Shown: positions 5,678-45,846 of the stretch, piece by piece
Layout of the letters: each line of letters starts with the position of its first letter
Numbering within the stretch: the stretch's first letter is position 1
IMG/VR virus record: IMGVR_UViG_3300045988_129434
DNA length: 64,000 nt
DNA from: a virus
Direction: 5' to 3' (one strand)
The notes under the pieces: generated by a model
Seen by the model: the letters and a program-made list of their open reading frames with translations, nothing else
What the model was told of the DNA's origin: nothing
Database searches by the model: none
Made by a program: the position numbers and the translations under genes

Positions 5678-6277
5678 ATGAAGATTGGCTATGTCAGAGT
5701 ATCAGCAGCAGACCAGAATGTGGCAAGGCAGATTAAAGCTATGCAGGAAGAAGGCGTGGAGAAAATATATATAGATAAGCAGTCAGGAAAAGACTTCAAC
5801 CGTCCAGAGTACAAGAAAATGATTTCTAGCCTAAAACATGGAGATGTCCTTGTACTTCATTCAATAGACAGGCTTGGAAGAAACTACGAGGAAATTCTTG
5901 AACAATGGAGGATTATCACAAAAGAGATCAAGGCAGATGTAATTGTTCAAGATATGCCGCTCCTTAATACAACAATTTCAAGAGATTTGGACGGAACCTT
6001 TATAGCAGATTTGGTACTCCAGATATTATCTTATGTTTCTGCAAAAGAGCGTGACAACATAAAACGTAGACAGCGTGAGGGTATCGCCATTGCGAAAACA
6101 CAGGGGAAATACAAAGGGGGAAAATCGAAAAGGATTGACGAGCAATTATTTACTGAAAATCTTGTAAGATACAGAAATGGAGAAATTACAAAGTTTCAAT
6201 TTGCAGTAAATATTGGTGTATCAAGACCGACACTTGACAAAATTATTAAAGAACGGGAGGAAGCGAATAATGATTGA
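5678..6277 (+). CDS. small serine recombinase (resolvase/invertase family)
   Basis: MKIGYVRVSAADQ (catalytic Ser), DRLGRN, C-terminal HTH GVSRPTLDKIIK; 199 aa. Confidence 0.9.
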   Translation: MKIGYVRVSAADQNVARQIKAMQEEGVEKIYIDKQSGKDFNRPEYKKMISSLKHGDVLVLHSIDRLGRNYEEILEQWRIITKEIKADVIVQDMPLLNTTISRDLDGTFIADLVLQILSYVSAKERDNIKRRQREGIAIAKTQGKYKGGKSKRIDEQLFTENLVRYRNGEITKFQFAVNIGVSRPTLDKIIKEREEANND

Positions 6278-6731: not shown

Positions 6732-6876
6732 AATTTTACCACAATTTTCGCCTACCGGCAAACACATCAGATAAATTCTAATTCACTTACAAAAGATATA
6801 CCCATTCGGGCAAATAATTCCACACAAAAGATAAAATCGGGCAATCCGAAAAAATTTCTAAAAACAAAAAAGCGTT

Positions 6877-6930
6877 CCGTCAACCGCAATCTATTGGATA
6901 TGACTGTTAATCATAAAACCTACGGCGGAA
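6877..6930 (+). ncRNA. mini tRNA-Asn mimic: closing helix plus an exact copy of the tRNA-Asn anticodon stem-loop
   Basis: ATGACTGTTAATCAT (6900-6914) is identical to 7037-7051 of tRNA-Asn; TTCCG..CCG (6877-) can pair with CGG-CGGAA (-6930). Confidence 0.3.
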
Positions 6931-7009
6931 TGAAATTAAGTTTCCTGTATCAGCAACTTATTAAGCACAAAATTGGGGATTTTGAAAGCAAAAAAACAGG
7001 AAATGATAA

Positions 7010-7082
7010 GGGAGCATAGCTCAGTTGGCAGAGCGCATGACTGTTAATCATGTTGTCGAAGGTTCAAGTCCTTCTGTTCCCG
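7010..7082 (+). tRNA. tRNA-Asn (anticodon GTT)
   Basis: Hand-folded cloverleaf: GGGAGCA/TGTTCCC acceptor, GCTC-AGTTGGCA-GAGC, CATGA-CTGTTAA-TCATG, GAAGG-TTCAAGT-CCTTC. Confidence 0.9.
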
Positions 7083-7087
7083 TTTTG

Positions 7088-7191
7088 GTTCTCATACAGC
7101 AGAATGAAGATGTGTCATTGGTTCAAGTCCAATCATTCCTGAAATGGAATGTCGCCCAGCTGGTAGGGCAATCTATTTATATTTTGAGAAC
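7088..7191 (+). ncRNA. circularly permuted tRNA-like RNA, YrlA/Y-RNA-like (module 1)
   Basis: Closing helix GTTCTCA(7088-7094)/TGAGAAC(7185-7191); T-arm ATTGG-TTCAAGT-CCAAT(7117-7133); loop-capped acceptor-like helix CATTCC-TGAAAT-GGAATG(7134-7151); D-arm GCCC-AGCTGGTA-GGGC(7154-7169). Confidence 0.55.
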
Positions 7192-7205
7192 TGTAAAAAA
7201 CAGAG

Positions 7206-7291
7206 GTACGCAGCAACAGCAATGACTTAATGGCAAATGATTTGTATGCAAAACAAAGAAAATACGGTTCGATTCCGTGAAATATGCGTAC
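7206..7291 (+). ncRNA. T-arm-containing structured RNA (module 2)
   Basis: GTACGCA(7206-7212)/TGCGTAC(7285-7291) helix enclosing the T-arm TACGG-TTCGATT-CCGTG(7263-7279); no D or acceptor mimic found. Confidence 0.35.
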
Positions 7292-7317
7292 TGTAAAAAC
7301 AACTAAAAACCTATGTA

Positions 7318-7414
7318 ACGCCAAACAGCAATTTATTCGCTTAAAAAAGCATATTGGTTCAACTCCAATCGTATCCGTGGAGGATATGCCCTAGTGGTCA
7401 AGGGAAATTGGCGT
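7318..7414 (+). ncRNA. circularly permuted tRNA-like RNA, YrlA/Y-RNA-like (module 3)
   Basis: Closing helix ACGCCAA(7318-7324)/TTGGCGT(7408-7414); T-arm ATTGG-TTCAACT-CCAAT(7353-7369); capped helix CGTATCC-GTGGA-GGATATG(7370-7388); D-arm CCCT-AGTGGTCA-AGGG(7389-7404). Confidence 0.55.
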
Positions 7415-7431
7415 AATGAAAGGAGATTTTT

Positions 7432-8886
7432 ATGAATTTTTCAGATGTAATGAGAGAAGAAAGCAAGTGGACAAAGACCGAGAACGGAGCAGACGCAAAG
7501 AATACTACGGATTCTGCTTTGCTGGATATGTTTGCGACTATCGGTGCCATGCGTACCAGATCAGAGGATGAGATTGTCAAGAAATTTGAGCTGGCATTTC
7601 AGGAAGACTCGTTAGGCGCTATGCGTTGCCTGTTCTATGCCAGAGACATTCATGGAGGTTTAGGCGAGCGCCGTGTGTTCCGTGTTCTTTTGACATACAT
7701 AGCAAATAAGCATACAGAAGAATTAAGAAAGAACATAGATAAAATACCAGAATACGGACGCTGGGACGACGTTTATTCTCTCGTCGGAACGAAATTAGAG
7801 GATAATATGTGGGATGATGTAAAGTATCAACTTTTAAAAGATAAAGTATTGATGAAGAATGAAGAGTCGTCTTCCCTTCTCGCTAAATGGCTCAAAAAGG
7901 CTGATGCTTCTAGCCCAAACACTCGGAAACTGGGAATTTATACGGCAAAGAAGTTGGGAATGTCCGTATATGACTATAAACGTCTTTGTAATCGCCTGAG
8001 AAAGCATATTGATGTTGTGGAGCAGCGCATGTCGGCCCGCCAGTGGGATACCATTAATTATCCGGCGGTTCCATCCAGGGCAATGATGAATTACCGAAAG
8101 GCATTTGCTCGTCACGATCAGGAACGTTTTGAAGAATATATAAACAAAGTTTCCTCTGGCGAACAGAAAATCAATGCAGCCACTCTTTATCCGTATGACA
8201 TTGTTGAGAAAATTTTGTATCACAGTGAGAATAGCAAGGTTCTGGAGGCTCAATGGGATAATCTGCCGAACTATGTTGACGGAGATGTAAATGCTGTGGT
8301 TATGGCAGATGTTTCCGGTTCGATGTACGGTAGACCGATGGCAACCTCTATTGGACTGGCAATGTACTTTGCAGAACGGAATAAAGGTGCATATCATAAT
8401 CTGTTTATAACGTTTTCAGGTCACCCAGAGTTTGTGGAAATAAAAGGAAAAACCATAACTCAAAAAATCAACTTCATTTCAAGAGCAAGTTGGCAGACGA
8501 TTACAGACCTTGAAGCTGCCCTTTTGAAGATTCTTGATGTGGCGATTGAAAATCATTGTTCACAAGAAGAAATGCCGAAATCACTCATTATCATTTCTGA
8601 TATGGAGATCGATTACTGTACTTGCCAGAAACATCGGGAGAACTTTTATGACTATGTTTCCAGGGTATATGAGGAACATGGATATAAAATTCCAAATGTA
8701 GTTTTCTGGAATGTAAATAGTCGGCATGATATATTTCTGGCTGATAAAAACCGTAAGGGAGTACAGCTTGTTTCCGGTCAGTCTGCAAGTACATTTAAGA
8801 ATTTGATTGGATGCGTGGACAAAACGCCGGTTGAGATGATGTATTCGGTTCTGAACAGCGAACGCTATCAGGCGATTCAGATTTGA
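7432..8886 (+). CDS. DUF2828/TROVE-like N-terminal region plus C-terminal vWA domain (Ro60-like architecture)
   Basis: 484 aa; KTENGADA..SALLDMF..CLFYARDIHGGLGERRVFR (DUF2828-type); MIDAS motif MADVSGSM plus IIISDME in the C-terminal half; AAAGGAG RBS. Confidence 0.8.
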   Translation: MNFSDVMREESKWTKTENGADAKNTTDSALLDMFATIGAMRTRSEDEIVKKFELAFQEDSLGAMRCLFYARDIHGGLGERRVFRVLLTYIANKHTEELRKNIDKIPEYGRWDDVYSLVGTKLEDNMWDDVKYQLLKDKVLMKNEESSSLLAKWLKKADASSPNTRKLGIYTAKKLGMSVYDYKRLCNRLRKHIDVVEQRMSARQWDTINYPAVPSRAMMNYRKAFARHDQERFEEYINKVSSGEQKINAATLYPYDIVEKILYHSENSKVLEAQWDNLPNYVDGDVNAVVMADVSGSMYGRPMATSIGLAMYFAERNKGAYHNLFITFSGHPEFVEIKGKTITQKINFISRASWQTITDLEAALLKILDVAIENHCSQEEMPKSLIIISDMEIDYCTCQKHRENFYDYVSRVYEEHGYKIPNVVFWNVNSRHDIFLADKNRKGVQLVSGQSASTFKNLIGCVDKTPVEMMYSVLNSERYQAIQI

Positions 8887-8897
8887 GGTAAATTGAA

Positions 8898-9578
8898 TTG
8901 ATAAAAGTAAAAGAAGATTTAACGGGAAAAAAGTTTTCATATTTGACTGTTATCAAAAGAGATGAAGACCATGTAACGAAATCTGGGAATATATATCCGA
9001 GATGGATATGCAAATGTGAATGTGGAAAACATGTTTCTGTATTTCAATCATCTCTAAAAAGTGGACAACAAAAATCGTGTGGGTGCAAACATTTTTCTGC
9101 TTGTAAAAAGTATAACAATTATAAAGTGAATGGAAACTTTGTTGAAGTAAATCTAACAAATTGCGATGAAACAATGATATGCGATTTAGAGAAATGGCAA
9201 CAGTTAAAAAAGTATTGCTGGATTAAAGGTAAAACAGGATATGCAGAGGCGAGAGTTGAAGGAAAAACAAGGTTGTTTCATCATTTTGTGATCGAATGCG
9301 AAAAGGGAAAAGTAAGGGATCACATAAATAGAAATAAGCTGGATAACAGAAAGATAAATTTAAGATGTGTAAGTTATTCTGATAATAATAAGAATGTCGA
9401 TAAGGCAGGAAGAAATCGCTACGGGGTAACTGGCGCATATAAAAATGGAAACAAGATAGGAATGCGGATATATGTGAACGGGAAAATAAAATATATAGGG
9501 AGTTTTTCGACTATTGAAGAGGCGATTGAAGCAAAGAAAAAGTCAGAAGAACTTTATGAGGGGGTGATTAGTCCATGA
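8898..9578 (+). CDS. HNH homing endonuclease with C-terminal AP2 DNA-binding domain
   Basis: TTG start; Cys cluster CKCECG..CGC; RDHINRNKLDNRKINLR..SDNNKN (HNH_3-like); YGVTGAYKNGNKIGMRIYVNGKIKYIGSFSTIEEA (AP2-like). Confidence 0.75.
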   Translation: MIKVKEDLTGKKFSYLTVIKRDEDHVTKSGNIYPRWICKCECGKHVSVFQSSLKSGQQKSCGCKHFSACKKYNNYKVNGNFVEVNLTNCDETMICDLEKWQQLKKYCWIKGKTGYAEARVEGKTRLFHHFVIECEKGKVRDHINRNKLDNRKINLRCVSYSDNNKNVDKAGRNRYGVTGAYKNGNKIGMRIYVNGKIKYIGSFSTIEEAIEAKKKSEELYEGVISP

Positions 9579-13597: not shown

Positions 13598-13606
13598 GGC
13601 TTATTT

Positions 13607-13695
13607 TGGGCTATCGCCAAACGGTTAAGGCACCGGGCTTTGACCCCGGAAGAGAAGGAACGCTCTTTACGCTGGTTCGAATCCAGCTAGCCCAG
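13607..13695 (+). tRNA. tRNA-Gln (anticodon TTG) with an atypical 21-nt extra arm
   Basis: TGGGCTA/TAGCCCA acceptor (U1-A72), G73, GCC-AAACGGTTAA-GGC, CCGGG-CTTTGAC-CCCGG, variable region AAGAGAAGGAACGCTCTTTAC, GCTGG-TTCGAAT-CCAGC. Confidence 0.75.
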
Positions 13696-13917
13696 TTGGT
13701 TTCTGATTTTGGCATAGAAACTTTCTCCACCACCTACGGCGCAAGGCTGTGACAAAAGGAGATTCAAATGCTCCGGGTGGTTTTGTCCGACTACTGTTTG
13801 AGGACGTAAAATAAAAGAACAGCGTGTAGATTGGCGGTAAGGCGATACGATTCTAAATACCGCATGGTGCCTAAAGCAGCACGATAAATAATGCAAAAAC
13901 GGGAGAAATCCCGTTAC
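13696..13917 (+). ncRNA. structured inter-tRNA spacer RNA (unknown class)
   Basis: ORF-free; local helices GTTTC/GAAAC, GGAG/CTCC, GCGGTA/TACCGC, ACGGG-AGAAAT-CCCGT (13899-13914). Confidence 0.3.
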
Positions 13918-13991
13918 GGATCATTAGCTCAGATGGTGAGAGCCGTTGCCTCATAAGCAGAAGGTCGTAGGTTCGAGTCCTACATGATCCA
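13918..13991 (+). tRNA. tRNA with CAT anticodon (elongator Met or Ile2; not initiator-like)
   Basis: GGATCAT/ATGATCC, GCTC-AGATGGTGA-GAGC, anticodon loop CTCATAA, GTAGG-TTCGAGT-CCTAC. Confidence 0.85.
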
Positions 13992-14050
13992 TTCCGCCAT
14001 AGCTAGTACCCTTTGGCTGTCAGGTACGGCAGCGGCTATGGTAGGAACCA

Positions 14051-14133
14051 CGAGACGTAGCTAAATTGGCAGAGCACTGAAAGCCGGATACAACTATGTA
14101 CAGAAGATGGCGGTTCGAATCCGCCCGTCTCGA
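14051..14133 (+). ncRNA. tRNA-like RNA with canonical acceptor, D and T arms but an aberrant 27-nt anticodon arm
   Basis: CGAGACG/CGTCTCG, GCTA-AATTGGCA-GAGC, GGCGG-TTCGAAT-CCGCC; anticodon region CTG-[AAAGCCGGA]-TACA-ACTA-TGTA-CAG. Confidence 0.6.
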
Positions 14134-14318
14134 TTTTACCACTTAGCAAGATGGGTATACCTGCTACGAAATCCTGTGAAAAAAACTTTTCCAGAGAGAT
14201 AAGACCAAAGGCCGTGAGGAGCAGTAGTCGGTGATTCTGGAAGATTCCCGGAAGTATGACGATTAGAAAGTTGACCTTATTGGGATGACGCTTTCAAAGT
14301 GGTTTTATAAGGGAATAT
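14134..14318 (+). ncRNA. structured inter-tRNA spacer RNA closed by a long-range helix
   Basis: ACCACTT(14138-14144)/AAGTGGT(14297-14303); inner TTCCAGA(14189-14195)/TCTGGAA(14236-14242); TAGCA/TGCTA hairpin. Confidence 0.4.
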
Positions 14319-14390
14319 GCCGATATAGTTCAATGGCAGAACACCGCCCTTGTAAGGCGGATGTTATCAGTTCGAGTCTGGTTATCGGCT
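14319..14390 (+). tRNA. tRNA-Thr (anticodon TGT)
   Basis: GCCGATA/TATCGGC, GTTC-AATGGCA-GAAC, CCGCC-CTTGTAA-GGCGG, ATCAG-TTCGAGT-CTGGT. Confidence 0.9.
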
Positions 14391-18694: not shown

Positions 18695-18946
18695 ATGAAC
18701 TGTTATGATTGCAAATTTTATAATACAGATTATGAATTTGATGGAGAAGATGAATATGAAATAGGTATTTGCGAAGTCGGACACAATGAATACCTTAATT
18801 CTGATGAAGAATGTCCATATTTCAAAAAGTACCTTCAGAAAAAATATGTTGAAACAGATACAGAATGTGATGTATGCGAATATCTTTTTGATTGCATGAA
18901 GCTGATTTGGCAGCACATTAAAGGGTGGTGTGAACATGAATCATAA
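18695..18946 (+). CDS. Cys-rich acidic protein (83 aa)
   Basis: MNCYDCKFY...CEVGH..ECPYF..CDVCEYLFDC. Confidence 0.55.
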   Translation: MNCYDCKFYNTDYEFDGEDEYEIGICEVGHNEYLNSDEECPYFKKYLQKKYVETDTECDVCEYLFDCMKLIWQHIKGWCEHES

Positions 18947-20099
18947 TTCAAAATTATGTTGCTTCATAAATAAAAATGAAAATTGGAGAGAACTCCTTCA
19001 AAACGAATATAAGATAAACGTGAAAGAAGAATATCCGTTTGCAATATTCAACTATGGTATAGATAGCGATTTTTCAGATCTGATTGTGCAGGAGGCAAGA
19101 GGAATCATTATAGACCTTGAAAATCTGGAGGTAGTTTGTTGGCCGTTTAGAAAGTTCGGAAATTATAACGAAAATTACGCAGACAATATTGATTGGAATA
19201 CTGCCAGAGTGCAGGATAAAATTGATGGAAGTATTATTAAACTGTGGTGGAATAGAACAACAGGAAAGTGGCAATTATCTACAAACAGAACGATAAATGC
19301 GGGAACAGCACTTGCAAATCAAATGACGCAAGAAACATTTCTTGATGTGATAAGGAAAGCGGATAACTATAACGAAATTGCTTTGAAATTACCGATTTTC
19401 AATAAGGATTATACTTTTATTTTTGAACTGGTCAGTCCAGAAACGCAGGTGGTTGTAAAATATCCTAAACCATATCTATATCATATCGGAACGAGAAATA
19501 ATATTAGTGGTATGGAGGAGGATTCGGATATAGGAATCGAAAAGCCAAAAGAATATTTATTAAGAACTCTTGATGATTGTCTAATTGCCGCAAATGAACT
19601 TAATAAGGCTAATGATGGACAGGTTCACGGTGTAAAGAAAGAGGGTTTTGTAGTTGTAGATGAGAACTGGAATAGGATAAAGATAAAATCGCCAGATTAT
19701 TTAATGCTCCATAGAATGTCGGCCAATGCAAACTTTTCTAAAGAGAGAATCGTTGGAATGATACGGGATGGAACTGTGAGCGTTCGGGATATATGTAATG
19801 TTTTTCCGAACTTTGCTCATTATTTTAAATTCTATGATTTCAAAATATCAGAGCTGGAATATCAGGCAAAATTGTTTTGCGATTTGGTTGACAGAATTTA
19901 TGAAGAGTATAGTCACGAGAGGAAAGCAGTCGCTAACATCATAAAGAAACACAGATTGGCCGGATTAGGATTTAAACACTTAGATAGCGGAAAATCTGGA
20001 TATGAATTACTGGGAGAAATGCCGTTATCGCAATATTGCAAATATATTCCAGATTACCAACCGGAGAGATTAAGCGAATTGTTTTATAGGAACAAATAA
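18936..20099 (+). CDS. ATP-dependent RNA ligase, T4 RnlA (Rnl1) family
   Basis: Motif I QDKIDGS; FIFELVSPETQVVVKY and EGFVVVDENWNRIKIKSPDYLMLH parallel T4 Rnl1 ANFEFVAPTNRIV and EGYVAV..FKIKSDWYVSLH (from memory). Confidence 0.75.
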   Translation: MNHNSKLCCFINKNENWRELLQNEYKINVKEEYPFAIFNYGIDSDFSDLIVQEARGIIIDLENLEVVCWPFRKFGNYNENYADNIDWNTARVQDKIDGSIIKLWWNRTTGKWQLSTNRTINAGTALANQMTQETFLDVIRKADNYNEIALKLPIFNKDYTFIFELVSPETQVVVKYPKPYLYHIGTRNNISGMEEDSDIGIEKPKEYLLRTLDDCLIAANELNKANDGQVHGVKKEGFVVVDENWNRIKIKSPDYLMLHRMSANANFSKERIVGMIRDGTVSVRDICNVFPNFAHYFKFYDFKISELEYQAKLFCDLVDRIYEEYSHERKAVANIIKKHRLAGLGFKHLDSGKSGYELLGEMPLSQYCKYIPDYQPERLSELFYRNK

Positions 20100-45580: not shown

Positions 45581-45846
45581 CTTACTTTTCCTCCTTGCAC
45601 TATTATAATACCATACTATACGTGTTTTGTCAATACGTATAATACAAATGTGTATGGAAATATCATTAAAAGTCTCTTAAAAAGTTTGCAGAATTTTACC
45701 GAGTATAAAAGGGTATCGTGAGAATTTTAAAAAAACTATTGCAATCAAAATCAGGAATTTGCTGAATACTTTTATTACTTTTTCATGAATTTTCTTTCGC
45801 TTAAATGGATTTAATGGTATAATTTGTAGAGAAGGGAGGAAGAGAA

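What the first reader, a model, noticed from the sequence alone, without database searches (positions are those of the whole stretch)
6732..8886. Ro60-like (DUF2828/TROVE + vWA) gene preceded by circularly permuted tRNA-like RNAs: candidate phage Ro/Y-RNA particle
The 700-nt ORF-poor leader of the 484-aa gene at 7432-8886 holds a canonical tRNA-Asn (7010-7082). After it come two modules, 7088-7191 and 7318-7414, with the same unusual element order:
- a 7-bp closing helix;
- a T-arm (ATTGG-TTCAAGT-CCAAT / ATTGG-TTCAACT-CCAAT);
- an acceptor-like helix whose two strands are joined by a 5-6 nt loop (CATTCC-TGAAAT-GGAATG / CGTATCC-GTGGA-GGATATG);
- a D-arm with the GG dinucleotide (GCCC-AGCTGGTA-GGGC / CCCT-AGTGGTCA-AGGG);
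- the return strand of the closing helix.

This is a tRNA opened at the anticodon and closed at the acceptor end. The same topology is described for the tRNA-like domain of bacterial YrlA-type Y RNAs, which are encoded next to rsr (Ro60 = TROVE + vWA). A third module (7206-7291) keeps only a closing helix and a perfect T-arm.

The helices differ in sequence between modules while the fold is kept, which argues for selection on structure.

The adjacent protein has a vWA MIDAS motif (DVSGSM). I recognise its N-terminal region as DUF2828-type, which I recall being TROVE-related. Module 3 ends 17 nt before the start codon, so RNA and protein are probably co-expressed.

The same genome carries an Rnl1-type RNA ligase (18936-20099) and a tRNA island. 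Together these point to an RNA quality-control or anti-tRNA-nuclease toolkit. As far as I know, no such toolkit has been characterised in phages of Gram-positive hosts.
Basis: partly seen in the sequence, partly recalled or inferred. Interest (0 to 1): 0.9.

Follow-up and report, generated by a model that had tools for sequence, protein, structure and literature searches.

The report
Phage Ro-like protein with modular tRNA-mimic RNAs
A gut-bacterium phage encodes a ring-shaped Ro60-like protein next to a row of small RNAs that share one conserved "handle" and display different pieces of tRNA; the same pairing recurs in many unrelated phages, so it is probably a widespread, undescribed branch of the Ro/Y-RNA particle family.

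Summary

**Protein.** The 484-aa protein (7432-8886) is Pfam DUF2828 + DUF7788/vWA. Its AlphaFold model (pLDDT 90) matches only Ro60/TROVE structures over its full length, although no TROVE sequence profile hits it.

**RNAs.**
- Modules 1 and 3 are YrlA-like permuted tRNA mimics. Module 1 scores 43 bits against Rfam YrlA, below the family threshold.
- Across 22 related modules, 13 of 14 predicted base pairs show compensatory changes.
- The leader holds five modules, not three.
- Each module is a 7-9 bp stem that joins its two ends, followed by a conserved ACAGCAA-type motif and a variable "cargo". The cargo is an anticodon-loop mimic, a T-arm, or a T/acceptor/D set.

**Distribution.** This handle replaces the CGAA motif of known Y RNAs. 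It recurs on the gene's strand beside DUF2828 genes in Bacillus, Listeria, Staphylococcus, Enterococcus, Mycobacterium, Escherichia, Klebsiella and Campylobacter phages and in a cyanophage.

**Unexpected match.** The handle also matches the Dictyostelium Class I RNA design.

**Not shown.** Protein-RNA binding, RNA processing and function are all inferred. The likeliest setting is tRNA damage and repair during phage-host conflict.

The parts
6873..6932 (+). Handle RNA module A. Closing stem CGUUCCGUC/GGCGGAAUG, motif ACCGCAA, and a cargo that is an anticodon stem-loop mimic (UAUGA-CUGUUAA-UCAUA). The mimic has the same loop as the neighbouring tRNA-Asn and 4 of its 5 stem pairs.
   Evidence: Python scans. 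CM R1 scores 37.7 bits, E 3.8e-5; this is a training sequence. ASL analysis. Sequence read.
6940..7004 (+). Handle RNA module B. Closing stem GUUUCCUGU/ACAGGAAAU, motif UCAGCAA, and a cargo hairpin with a 7-nt loop (CAAAA-UUGGGGA-UUUUG).
   Evidence: CM R1 scores 35.1 bits; this is a training sequence.
7010..7082 (+). Canonical tRNA-Asn (GUU), embedded in the module array.
   Evidence: ARAGORN. Rfam tRNA 71.6 bits.
7086..7193 (+). Closing stem UGGUUCUCA/UGAGAACUG, motif ACAGCAG, and a YrlA-like cargo of T-arm, acceptor-like hairpin and D-arm. A 3' CUGU follows.
   Evidence: Rfam YrlA 43.3 bits, gathering score 69. MFE fold. CM R1 18.6 bits; not a training sequence. Covariation in A5.
7205..7292 (+). 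Handle RNA module 2. Closing stem GGUACGCA/UGCGUACU, motif ACAGCAA, and a cargo with a degenerate D/anticodon region plus a perfect T-arm (ACGG-UUCGAUU-CCGU). A 3' (C)UGU follows.
   Evidence: CM R1 27.2 bits, E 0.006; not a training sequence. Partial Rfam tRNA hit 19.7 bits. Fold.
7318..7414 (+). Handle RNA module 3. Closing stem ACGCCAA/UUGGCGU, extendable to 7314-7418, motif ACAGCAA, a small hairpin, then T-arm, acceptor-like hairpin and D-arm. It ends 17 nt before the start codon and abuts the Shine-Dalgarno sequence AAGGAG (7420-7425).
   Evidence: MFE equals the centroid structure, z -2.2. CM R1 16.0 bits. Covariation in A5. The distance to the start codon is conserved at 12-17 nt in relatives.
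7432..8886 (+). Ro60-like protein of 484 aa. It has an N-terminal helical-repeat (TROVE-like, Pfam DUF2828) ring region of about residues 1-280. The C-terminal vWA domain (Pfam DUF7788) carries the MIDAS motif D293-x-S295-x-S297.
   Evidence: Pfam and PHROG 850. AF2 pLDDT 90.4, pTM 0.89. Foldseek PDB top five are all Ro60/TROVE. The MIDAS residues are invariant in 133 homologues.
18930..20099 (+). Rnl1-type RNA ligase. This is context only: a tRNA-repair enzyme in the same phage genome, not part of the locus itself.
   Evidence: Pfam RNA_lig_T4_1, 1.3e-16.
13606..14390 (+). tRNA island of four genes (Gln, Met, Arg, Thr). Context only.
   Evidence: ARAGORN and Rfam.

Best explanation
**What it is.** The 6870-8886 stretch is one expression unit of a phage or prophage of Blautia. 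It encodes a Ro60-like ring protein (DUF2828 helical repeats plus vWA/MIDAS), one genuine tRNA-Asn and five small Y-RNA-like RNAs.

**How each RNA is built.** Every RNA follows the same plan. Its 5' and 3' ends pair into a 7-9 bp stem, and an ACAGCAA-type motif sits immediately after the 5' strand. I call this stem plus motif the 'handle'. The rest of the RNA is an exchangeable cargo that copies a piece of tRNA:
- an anticodon stem-loop (module A);
- another 7-nt-loop hairpin (module B);
- a T-arm (module 2);
- the T-arm, acceptor-like hairpin and D-arm 'elbow' of YrlA (modules 1 and 3).

**Proposed mechanism.** By analogy with Ro60, which grips the 5' strand of the terminal Y-RNA stem, I propose that the handle is the binding site of the adjacent protein. 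The cargo would then recruit or distract tRNA-recognising enzymes. The particle would act during tRNA damage and repair in phage-host conflict. It could be a decoy for host anticodon nucleases, or a platform that brings repair or processing enzymes (RNA ligase, kinase/phosphatase, RNase P, CCA-adding enzyme) or a nuclease to damaged tRNA.

The last module abuts the ribosome-binding site. Protein binding there may also feed back on the protein's own translation.

**Shown:**
- the fold of the protein;
- the conserved handle and covarying stems;
- the tRNA-like cargo with covariation;
- strand-specific synteny across many phage lineages.

**Inferred:**
- protein-handle binding;
- cleavage of the array into separate RNAs;
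- the biological role.
For: **Protein.**
- AF2 model: pLDDT 90.4, pTM 0.89.
- Foldseek PDB ranks 1-5 are 9KOP (Thermus phage Ro60), 1YVR/1YVP (Xenopus Ro), 9NFA and 9NEN (human Ro60). E values run from 2e-7 to 1e-3 and alignments cover 493-566 columns. All later hits are isolated vWA domains.
- The MIDAS residues D293, S295 and S297 are invariant.

**tRNA-like cargo.**
- Rfam YrlA hits the window at 43.3 bits.
- It also hits mycobacteriophage UPIE L005 3038-3146 at 39.8 bits and phiM7 at 35.2 bits.
- It hits metagenomic L063 at 41.8 and 37.8 bits.
- RNAalifold on 22 modules shows compensatory changes in 13 of 14 pairs.

**Handle.**
- Exact ACAGCAA occurs at 0.95 per kb in the same-strand flanks of DUF2828 genes, against 0.086 per kb elsewhere.
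- 79 of 109 flank copies have a >=7-bp closing stem, against 4 of 36 elsewhere (Fisher p 8.5e-11).
- The 7-bp stem is 93.7% paired in 39 modules, against 60.9% after shuffling. The covariation score is 0.93, against 0.10-0.15 when the partner is slid.
- CM R1 finds all five window modules among its top seven hits in 128 kb.
- In ten loci not used for training, 16 of 16 hits with E<=1 lie on the gene strand in non-coding flanks: PJN02, Enterococcus Bop, Klebsiella FBKp34, Staphylococcus PG-2021_12, Cronobacter S13, phiM7 and Synechococcus B23.
- The handle is portable. In some loci it sits as a closed hairpin plus UACAGCA(A/U) inside complete tRNA bodies.

**Anticodon-loop cargo.** 34 of 65 short modules carry an anticodon-like hairpin, against 6.1 +/- 2.3 after shuffling.

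**Repair context.**
- Rnl1 in the window.
- RtcB-type ligase and a phosphohydrolase just downstream in Listeria phage A511.
- An RNA ligase immediately upstream in phage CBB.
- An RNA ligase and a polynucleotide kinase in LeBron, whose homologous gp53 is toxic when overexpressed (PMC13148394).

**Precedent.**
- Ro60 contacts the 5' strand of the Y-RNA stem, and YrlA mimics tRNA (PMC4201824).
- Phage Ro60 binds Yrl RNAs and host PNPase (PMC12135203).
Against: - No experiment shows that these RNAs accumulate or bind the protein.
- No TROVE sequence signal. Pfam finds none at E<=1. A family profile against PDB gives only a marginal vWA match to Ro60, E 0.36.
- TM-scores of about 0.55 with rmsd 8.6-10.8 A mean the ring geometry differs from Ro60.
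- YrlA hits are all below Rfam's gathering score. Module 3 is not hit at all.
- The window's own handle is degenerate in three of five modules (ACCGCAA, UCAGCAA, ACAGCAG).
- The stem covariation counts were made on instances that I had selected for having a stem. Only searches are free of that bias.
- No convincing sigma-70-type promoter or terminator was found on the + strand of the leader.
- Three sampled phages with the gene (Vibrio nt-1, Aeromonas PX29, Pectobacterium CBB) gave no module at E<=1.
- The decoy and repair-platform variants cannot be told apart with sequence data.
Confidence: 0.62

Rival explanations
1. The modules are cis-regulatory elements of the mRNA rather than separate RNAs. 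They would be repeated operator sites in the 5' leader, through which the DUF2828 protein or another factor controls translation or stability of its own message.
For: The last module ends 12-17 nt before the start codon and directly abuts the Shine-Dalgarno sequence, in the window and in its relatives. No separate promoter or terminator was detected between the modules and the gene.
Against: In many phages the modules lie downstream of the gene, or among tRNA genes: UPIE, Staphylococcus S-CoN_Ph12 and PG-2021_12, JH2 and FBKp34. A true tRNA sits inside the window's array, which implies processing. The cargo consists of tRNA parts with their own covariation, and an operator would not need that. 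The same handle is embedded in complete tRNA bodies. Autoregulation by the last module remains compatible with the main explanation.
Confidence: 0.15
2. The region is debris of a decaying tRNA gene cluster. It would consist of tRNA fragments and fused tRNA halves with no function of their own, sitting by chance next to a vWA protein gene.
For: Phage tRNA arrays are common, and the gene is usually near one. Chen et al. warn that tandem tRNAs can mimic YrlA in searches (PMC4201824). Module 2 looks like a degraded tRNA, with a partial hit of 19.7 bits.
Against: The permuted order T-arm, acceptor hairpin, D-arm lies within a single closing stem. It does not span two tRNAs. A non-tRNA motif, ACAGCAA, and its adjoining stem are conserved from Firmicutes phages to actinophages, coliphages and a cyanophage, while all stem sequences differ. 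Compensatory changes occur in 13 of 14 cargo pairs. Neutral decay would not preserve this.
Confidence: 0.04
3. It is simply a canonical Ro60/YrlA system, a direct orthologue of bacterial rsr-yrlA. The RNA would tether the ring to PNPase for degradation of structured RNA, with no special link to tRNA conflict.
For: Ro60-like fold. YrlA-type cargo. Phage phiLo Ro60/Yrl binds host PNPase (PMC12135203).
Against: The defining sequence features are not met. There is no TROVE Pfam hit. There is no GNCGAA/CGAA motif, and a different conserved motif occupies its place. The YrlA score is below threshold. Many modules carry anticodon-loop mimics or no tRNA-like domain at all. PNPase tethering is untested either way.
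Confidence: 0.15

Closest known systems
Bacterial Ro60 (Rsr) with YrlA/YrlB Y RNAs (Salmonella, Mycobacterium smegmatis; Chen et al. 2014, PMC4201824; Rfam RF02553)
   Same: A ring protein of helical repeats plus vWA/MIDAS. Small RNAs are encoded within a few hundred bases on the same strand. The RNA ends pair into a stem next to a conserved single-stranded motif. The long form carries a permuted tRNA mimic (T-arm, acceptor-like hairpin, D-arm) and the short forms lack it. Both are linked to RNA ligase genes.
   Different: The protein is not recognised by the TROVE profile and is about 40-50 residues shorter. The conserved RNA motif is ACAGCAA rather than GNCGAA(N)G. There are up to five or six RNAs in tandem, mixed with real tRNAs. 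The cargo includes anticodon-loop mimics. The handle can also be inserted into whole tRNAs.
Thermus phage phiLo Ro60 with Yrl1/Yrl2 (Hu et al. 2025, PMC12135203; PDB 9KOP)
   Same: A phage-encoded Ro60-type ring with two Y-like RNAs just upstream of the gene. It is the best structural match of the model.
   Different: phiLo Ro60 is a recognisable Ro60 homologue, and its RNAs carry the CGAA motif. Per my term search, that paper does not use the term 'tRNA-like' for its RNAs. Sequence identity in the structural alignment is 16%.
Dictyostelium Class I RNAs (Rfam RF01414; Kjellin et al. 2021, PMC7919456)
   Same: A short stem joins the 5' and 3' ends. An 11-nt motif, CCUUACAGCAA, lies directly after the 5' strand. 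The rest is variable and the 3' end is CUGU. The Rfam model hits eight phage modules, the best at 36.5 bits, E 0.0014. Window modules 1 and 2 are followed by 3' CUGU.
   Different: Class I RNAs are eukaryotic, transcribed from individual genes with a DUSE promoter, and reported as unique to Dictyostelia. Their known direct binder is an RRM protein. All phage hits are below the gathering score of 41.5, and none of the window's own modules was hit at E<=10. Whether Dictyostelium has a DUF2828 partner was not testable here.
Phage T4 Pnk/Rnl1 tRNA repair against the PrrC anticodon nuclease (established knowledge; also cited in PMC13148394)
   Same: A phage toolkit aimed at broken tRNA anticodon loops. 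An Rnl1-type ligase is present in this genome.
   Different: T4 has no Ro-like protein or handle RNAs. No kinase/phosphatase was looked for in this window.

Membership tests
Ro60 / TROVE protein family | Ring of helical (HEAT-like) repeats followed by a vWA domain with a MIDAS site | tested here: met
   The AF2 model (pLDDT 90.4) aligns over its full length to 9KOP, 1YVR, 1YVP, 9NFA and 9NEN. TMq is 0.46-0.59 (0.53-0.59 for the top four) and probability 1.00. The DxSxS residues are invariant.
Ro60 / TROVE protein family | Match to the TROVE sequence profile (Pfam PF05731), or sequence similarity to solved Ro60 proteins | tested here: not met
   Pfam at E<=1 reports only DUF2828, DUF7788, VWA_2 and DUF4363. 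phmmer against PDB finds nothing. A 14-sequence profile gives Ro60 1YVP at E 0.36, in the vWA part only.
Ro60 / TROVE protein family | Binds Y RNA on the outer surface and misfolded RNA ends in the central hole | not testable with these tools
   This needs biochemistry or an RNA-protein structure prediction.
YrlA Y RNA (Rfam RF02553) | Score at or above the curated gathering threshold (69 bits) | tested here: not met
   Module 1 scores 43.3 bits. Module 3 gets no hit at E<=10. Relatives score 35-42 bits.
YrlA Y RNA (Rfam RF02553) | tRNA-like domain in the order T-arm, acceptor-like hairpin, D-arm, enclosed by stems formed from the RNA's two ends | tested here: met
   cmscan alignment. MFE folds. 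Consensus fold with compensatory changes in 13 of 14 pairs.
YrlA Y RNA (Rfam RF02553) | GNCGAA(N)G / CGAA Ro-binding motif near the 5' end | tested here: not met
   The window has CAUACAGCAG where the model has CgaAUGC. The nearly invariant motif in 39 modules is CAGCAA.
YrlA Y RNA (Rfam RF02553) | Encoded within 4 kb of, and on the same strand as, the Ro60-type gene | tested here: met
   The modules lie 17-560 nt upstream on the + strand. The same holds in 16 of 16 independent hits.
Dictyostelium Class I RNA (Rfam RF01414) | Terminal stem, then the (CCUU)ACAGCAA motif after the 5' strand, then a variable region, then a 3' CUGU | tested here: met
   The architecture is present in the window modules and in relatives, which carry the fuller UUACAGCAA. 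The description is taken from PMC7919456.
Dictyostelium Class I RNA (Rfam RF01414) | Score at or above the gathering threshold (41.5 bits) | tested here: not met
   The best phage hit scores 36.5 bits (L047 756-849). Seven more score 22-28 bits. No hit in the window leader at E<=10.
Dictyostelium Class I RNA (Rfam RF01414) | Independent eukaryotic genes with an upstream DUSE promoter element | not tested
   This does not apply to a phage polycistronic array. Common descent as against convergence is open.

The most novel reading that the evidence does not exclude
The stem-plus-ACAGCAA handle and the DUF2828 ring may form an ancient, self-contained RNA-protein pair, separate from classical Ro60/Y RNA. 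It would be shared by thousands of phages, by giant viruses of protists and by Dictyostelium.

On this reading the enigmatic Class I RNAs are the same kind of RNA. Their missing partner would be a DUF2828 protein, possibly the uncharacterised pull-down protein DDB_G0281243.

In phages the pair would work as a programmable display system. It would present chosen tRNA parts (anticodon loops of Asn, Ser, Tyr, Lys and others, or the tRNA elbow) to neutralise or exploit host tRNA-targeting defences.
Probability: 0.3. Interest if true: 0.92.

Novelty: new variant of a known kind. Interest (0 to 1): 0.8.

Why it matters
**What is already known.** Phage Ro60/Y-RNA particles are known in principle. The known cases are canonical Ro60 proteins whose RNAs carry a CGAA motif.

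**What is new here.**
- A much larger, sequence-divergent Ro-like family comes with its own conserved RNA handle. The family has 6,614 representatives at 50% identity and occurs in 709 phage records.
- The family appears in model and therapeutic phages such as Listeria A511, Felix O1-like phages and Twortvirinae staphylococcal phages.
- Its RNAs carry a modular set of tRNA-part cargos.

**What follows if true.**
- It gives a concrete candidate ligand for a 'domain of unknown function'.
- It explains many oddly long 'tRNA-OTHER/undetermined' annotations in phage genomes.
- It suggests a new layer in the arms race over tRNA cleavage.
- The match to Dictyostelium Class I RNAs, reported as unique to social amoebae, would make the 20-year-old question of what those RNAs do directly testable, if it reflects shared ancestry.

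Tried and rejected
**Searches that gave little or nothing**
- Sequence searches of the protein and of a 14-member profile against PDB gave no usable Ro60 signal. Structure prediction was needed.
- A second homologue search, run with a profile, returned the same close relatives and added nothing. A third search, seeded with the Sinorhizobium phage phiM7 protein, supplied the diversity for the alignment.
- A search of the viral contig collection with the single protein gave only 7 loci.

**Scans that were too weak or too strict**
- Folding energies of single modules are only weakly better than shuffles: z -0.6 to -2.2, and the whole leader -0.7. They were not used as evidence.
- The bare heptamer pattern AYMGCAA is too short to mean anything alone.
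- A loose stem scan has a high background over the whole window.
- A rigid scan demanding UG...UG stem ends lost real modules.
- These three were replaced by the covariance model and the flank-versus-elsewhere test.

**Explanations considered and rejected**
- A tandem-tRNA artefact for the YrlA hit. The T-arm of module 1 (7117-7135) is distinct from that of tRNA-Asn, and no anticodon arm follows the D-arm.
- The CM hit at 45702-45777 on the minus strand (23.2 bits). It is an AU-rich chance match.

**Uninformative or unobtainable**
- The promoter/terminator scan of the leader was uninformative.
- Avesson 2011, Burroughs & Aravind 2016 and Sim 2020 are not held.
- DDB_G0281243 appears in no held supplement. 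The Dictyostelium protein link could therefore not be tested.


Full report
**1. The observation**

- ARAGORN and Rfam call a canonical tRNA-Asn(GUU) at 7010-7082.
- The stretches 7086-7193 and 7318-7414 fold, as minimum-energy structures, into a closing stem that encloses a T-arm, a hairpin in the place of an acceptor stem, and a D-arm with the GG dinucleotide.
- 7205-7292 keeps a closing stem and a perfect T-arm.
- Folding energy alone is weak evidence, with z-scores of -0.6 to -2.2.
- The Rfam YrlA model aligns end to end with 7087-7195 at 43.3 bits, E 4e-8 in a 1-kb search. That is below the curated threshold of 69. It does not reach module 3.
- This is not the tandem-tRNA artefact that Chen et al. 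warn about. Module 1 has its own T-arm, and no anticodon arm follows its D-arm.

**2. The protein**

The 484-aa ORF matches Pfam DUF2828 (4.5e-41) and DUF7788 (2.4e-40), weakly VWA_2, and PHROG 850 'RNA-binding protein' (1.6e-151). It is identical to a protein annotated in Blautia hydrogenotrophica, so the host is a Gram-positive gut anaerobe.

Sequence methods do not link it to Ro60.
- No TROVE hit appears at E<=1.
- Nothing is found in PDB with the single sequence.
- A family profile gives only a marginal vWA-region match to Xenopus Ro60, E 0.36.

Structure does link it to Ro60.
- An AlphaFold2 model built on 133 diverse homologues has pLDDT 90.4 and pTM 0.89.
- Its five best PDB matches are all Ro60/TROVE proteins aligned over the whole chain:
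  - 9KOP, the Thermus phage phiLo Ro60;
  - 1YVR and 1YVP, Xenopus Ro;
  - 9NFA and 9NEN, human Ro60.
- For these five, E values run from 2e-7 to 1e-3 and TM is 0.46-0.59 normalised to the query (0.53-0.59 for the top four).
- Everything below them is an isolated vWA domain with TM about 0.2.
- The MIDAS residues D293, S295 and S297 are invariant.

So the fold claim holds, but sequence-level membership of TROVE does not.

The family is large and widespread.
- It has 6,614 representatives at 50% identity and occurs in 709 phage records.
- In mycobacteriophages it is already annotated 'Ro-like RNA binding protein'.
- It also occurs in giant viruses of protists.

**3.

Related gut-phage loci L001 and L002 encode proteins 56-58% identical to the window's. 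Comparing them exposed a shared motif. Directly after the 5' strand of each closing stem comes ACAGCAA, often (U)UACAGCAA(U). The 3' strand is followed by (C)UG(U).

The window has five such modules.

| Module | Coordinates | Motif | Cargo |
|---|---|---|---|
| A | 6873-6932 | ACCGCAA | anticodon stem-loop mimic |
| B | 6940-7004 | UCAGCAA | hairpin with a 7-nt loop |
| 1 | 7086-7193 | ACAGCAG | T-arm, acceptor-like hairpin, D-arm |
| 2 | 7205-7292 | ACAGCAA | degenerate D/anticodon region plus T-arm |
| 3 | 7318-7414 | ACAGCAA | small hairpin, then T-arm, acceptor-like hairpin, D-arm |

Module A's hairpin UAUGA-CUGUUAA-UCAUA has the same loop as the neighbouring tRNA-Asn anticodon arm and 4 of its 5 stem pairs.

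**4. The handle is conserved and specific**

- Simple scans found the same unit on the gene's strand, just upstream or downstream of the DUF2828 gene, in many phages:
  - Bacillus phage Tsamsa;
  - Listeria A511;
  - mycobacteriophage UPIE;
  - Enterococcus VRE9_3;
  - Staphylococcus S-CoN_Ph12;
  - the Felix O1-like coliphage JH2;
  - Campylobacter F374;
  - many metagenomic loci.
- In an alignment of 39 short modules only CAGCAA is nearly invariant.
- The 7-bp stem is 93.7% paired, against 60.9% after shuffling. All seven pairs show double changes. The covariation score is 0.93, against 0.10-0.15 with slid partners. Those instances had been chosen for having a stem, so two unbiased tests were added.
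  - **First test.** A covariance model (R1) placed all five window modules among its seven best hits in 128 kb. In ten phage loci not used for training, it gave 16 hits with E<=1. All 16 lie on the gene strand and in non-coding flanks.
  - **Second test.** I counted every exact ACAGCAA. Its density is 0.95 per kb in the same-strand flanks and 0.086 per kb elsewhere. 79 of 109 flank copies have a closing stem of at least 7 bp, against 4 of 36 elsewhere (p 8.5e-11).
- Three sampled phages (nt-1, PX29, CBB) showed no module at that threshold.

**5. The cargo is made of tRNA parts**

- Twenty-two long modules from the window, its relatives, JH2, UPIE and metagenomes align through a T-arm, an acceptor-like hairpin and a D-arm. 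RNAalifold recovers these helices, and 13 of 14 pairs carry compensatory changes.
- Rfam YrlA independently hits UPIE, phiM7 and L063 modules at 35-42 bits.
- Of 65 short modules, 34 carry a hairpin with a 7-nt loop of anticodon-loop form (U at loop position 2, a purine at position 6). Shuffled inserts give 6.1 +/- 2.3. Recurrent triplets are GUU, GCU, GUA, UUU, UGA and GAA.
- In other loci the handle is closed into a hairpin and inserted into a complete tRNA body, between the D-arm and the anticodon arm. Annotators have called these 110-127-nt objects tRNA-OTHER, tRNA-Undet or over-long tRNA-Asp/Ser.

**6. How it most likely works**

- Ro60 grips the 5' strand of the terminal Y-RNA stem, and YrlA's remaining domain mimics tRNA (PMC4201824). 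Phage phiLo Ro60 binds two upstream Yrl RNAs and host PNPase (PMC12135203).
- By analogy, the stem plus ACAGCAA is the predicted docking site for the adjacent ring protein. The cargo is the working end.
- The genomic company points to tRNA damage and repair:
  - tRNA arrays are almost always nearby;
  - an Rnl1 ligase lies in this window;
  - an RtcB-type ligase and a phosphohydrolase lie beside the A511 gene;
  - an RNA ligase lies next to the CBB gene;
  - LeBron carries a ligase and a polynucleotide kinase, and its homologue gp53 is toxic when overexpressed.
- Two variants remain open. The particle may be a decoy for anticodon nucleases, or a platform that brings enzymes to broken tRNAs. 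I cannot decide between them.
- The last module always abuts the Shine-Dalgarno sequence, so autoregulation is a plausible extra role.
- All of this paragraph is inference. Only fold, conservation, covariation and synteny are shown.

**7. Comparison with known families**

- The system works like Ro60/YrlA-YrlB. It fails three membership tests: the TROVE profile, the YrlA gathering score and the CGAA-type motif.
- It is therefore best filed as a divergent sister of the Ro/Y-RNA system with its own RNA specificity.
- Apart from tRNA and YrlA, the only Rfam family that repeatedly hits the modules is Dictyostelium Class I RNA. There are eight hits, the best at 36.5 bits, E 0.0014, against a threshold of 41.5.
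- The published description of Class I RNAs is the same plan: a terminal stem, an 11-nt CCUUACAGCAA motif next to the 5' strand, a variable remainder and a 3' CUGU (PMC7919456).
- That paper reports Class I RNAs as unique to Dictyostelia.
[quoted passage not shown] I could not obtain its sequence, so the link stays a lead.

**8. Verdict**

It is less unprecedented than claimed, because phage Ro60/Y-like RNAs are known and this protein family is already called Ro-like.

It is also richer than claimed. It has a distinct conserved handle, five modules and exchangeable tRNA-part cargo. It is distributed very widely across phages and has an unexpected eukaryotic look-alike.

Noticed in passing
L047 756-849, 676-745, 494-569; L002 1855-1919; L004 1194-1249; L007 3027-3089 and 3104-3163; L001 2070-2129 and 2157-2239: The Rfam model for Dictyostelium Class I RNA (RF01414) repeatedly hits the phage handle modules, the best at 36.5 bits, E 0.0014. 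Stem, UUACAGCAA motif and 3' CUG(U) all coincide with the published Class I design, which is reported as unique to social amoebae. A Class I pull-down protein of unknown function (DDB_G0281243) could be the DUF2828 partner. I could not check this.
   Followed up: partly
L085 3988-4101 (Klebsiella FBKp34 'tRNA-Asp', 114 nt); L087 3857-3977 and 3987-4099 (Cronobacter S13); L086 3869-3978 (Synechococcus B23 'tRNA-Undet'); L001 1195-1315, 1371-1488, 1494-1620; L002 1570-1690: Over-long or 'undetermined' tRNA annotations next to DUF2828 genes are complete tRNA bodies. A hairpin plus a UACAGCA(A/U)-type motif is inserted between the D-arm and the anticodon arm. This is the unpermuted counterpart of the window's modules 1 and 3.
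   Followed up: partly
window 6897-6913 versus 7036-7052; short modules in L012, L022, L025, L032, L036, L050, L051, L063 and L009: Short modules carry anticodon stem-loop mimics: 34 of 65, against about 6 expected. The triplets are GUU, GCU, GUA, UUU, UGA and GAA. Some of these correspond to tRNAs I recall as anticodon-nuclease targets (Lys, Asn, Tyr). The window's copy shares its loop and 4 of 5 stem pairs with its own tRNA-Asn.
   Followed up: partly
window 7414-7431, and the equivalent position in L001, L002, L024, L025, L033, L035, L041, L046, L047, L054 and L075: The last module always ends 12-17 nt before the start codon, directly against the AAAGGAG ribosome-binding site. This hints at translational feedback by the protein on its own mRNA.
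   Followed up: partly
window 14051-14133 and 13606-13696: Two tRNA calls in the tRNA island are unusually long. tRNA-Arg(ccg) is 83 nt, scores a modest 48.7 bits, and has an odd anticodon-arm region containing UACAGAAGAUG. tRNA-Gln is 91 nt and has a long extra arm. Neither matched the handle model.
   Followed up: no
L005 2955-3250 (mycobacteriophage UPIE, downstream of gp53): Three handle modules in a row follow the 'Ro-like' gene: short, YrlA-like (with motif variant GCAGCAA), short. They end in a clear intrinsic terminator, which suggests that the gene and the RNAs form one transcript. The LeBron homologue gp53 is toxic when overexpressed in M. smegmatis (PMC13148394).
   Followed up: partly
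BFVD matches to the model of window 7432-8883: Close structural relatives occur in giant viruses of protists: Pithovirus (TM 0.90), Marseillevirus, Cafeteria roenbergensis virus, Mimiviridae and Bodo saltans virus. Plant genomes also carry DUF2828 genes (PMC12344491). The family therefore crosses the prokaryote-eukaryote virus divide.
   Followed up: no
window 5678-6277 and 8898-9578: A serine recombinase (Resolvase, 4.6e-28) lies just upstream of the locus and an HNH endonuclease just downstream. The RNA-protein cassette sits between mobile-type genes.
   Followed up: no
window 45702-45777 (- strand): This is the only covariance-model hit below E 0.1 outside the leader (23.2 bits). It is AU-rich with a weak stem and is judged a chance match.
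   Followed up: yes
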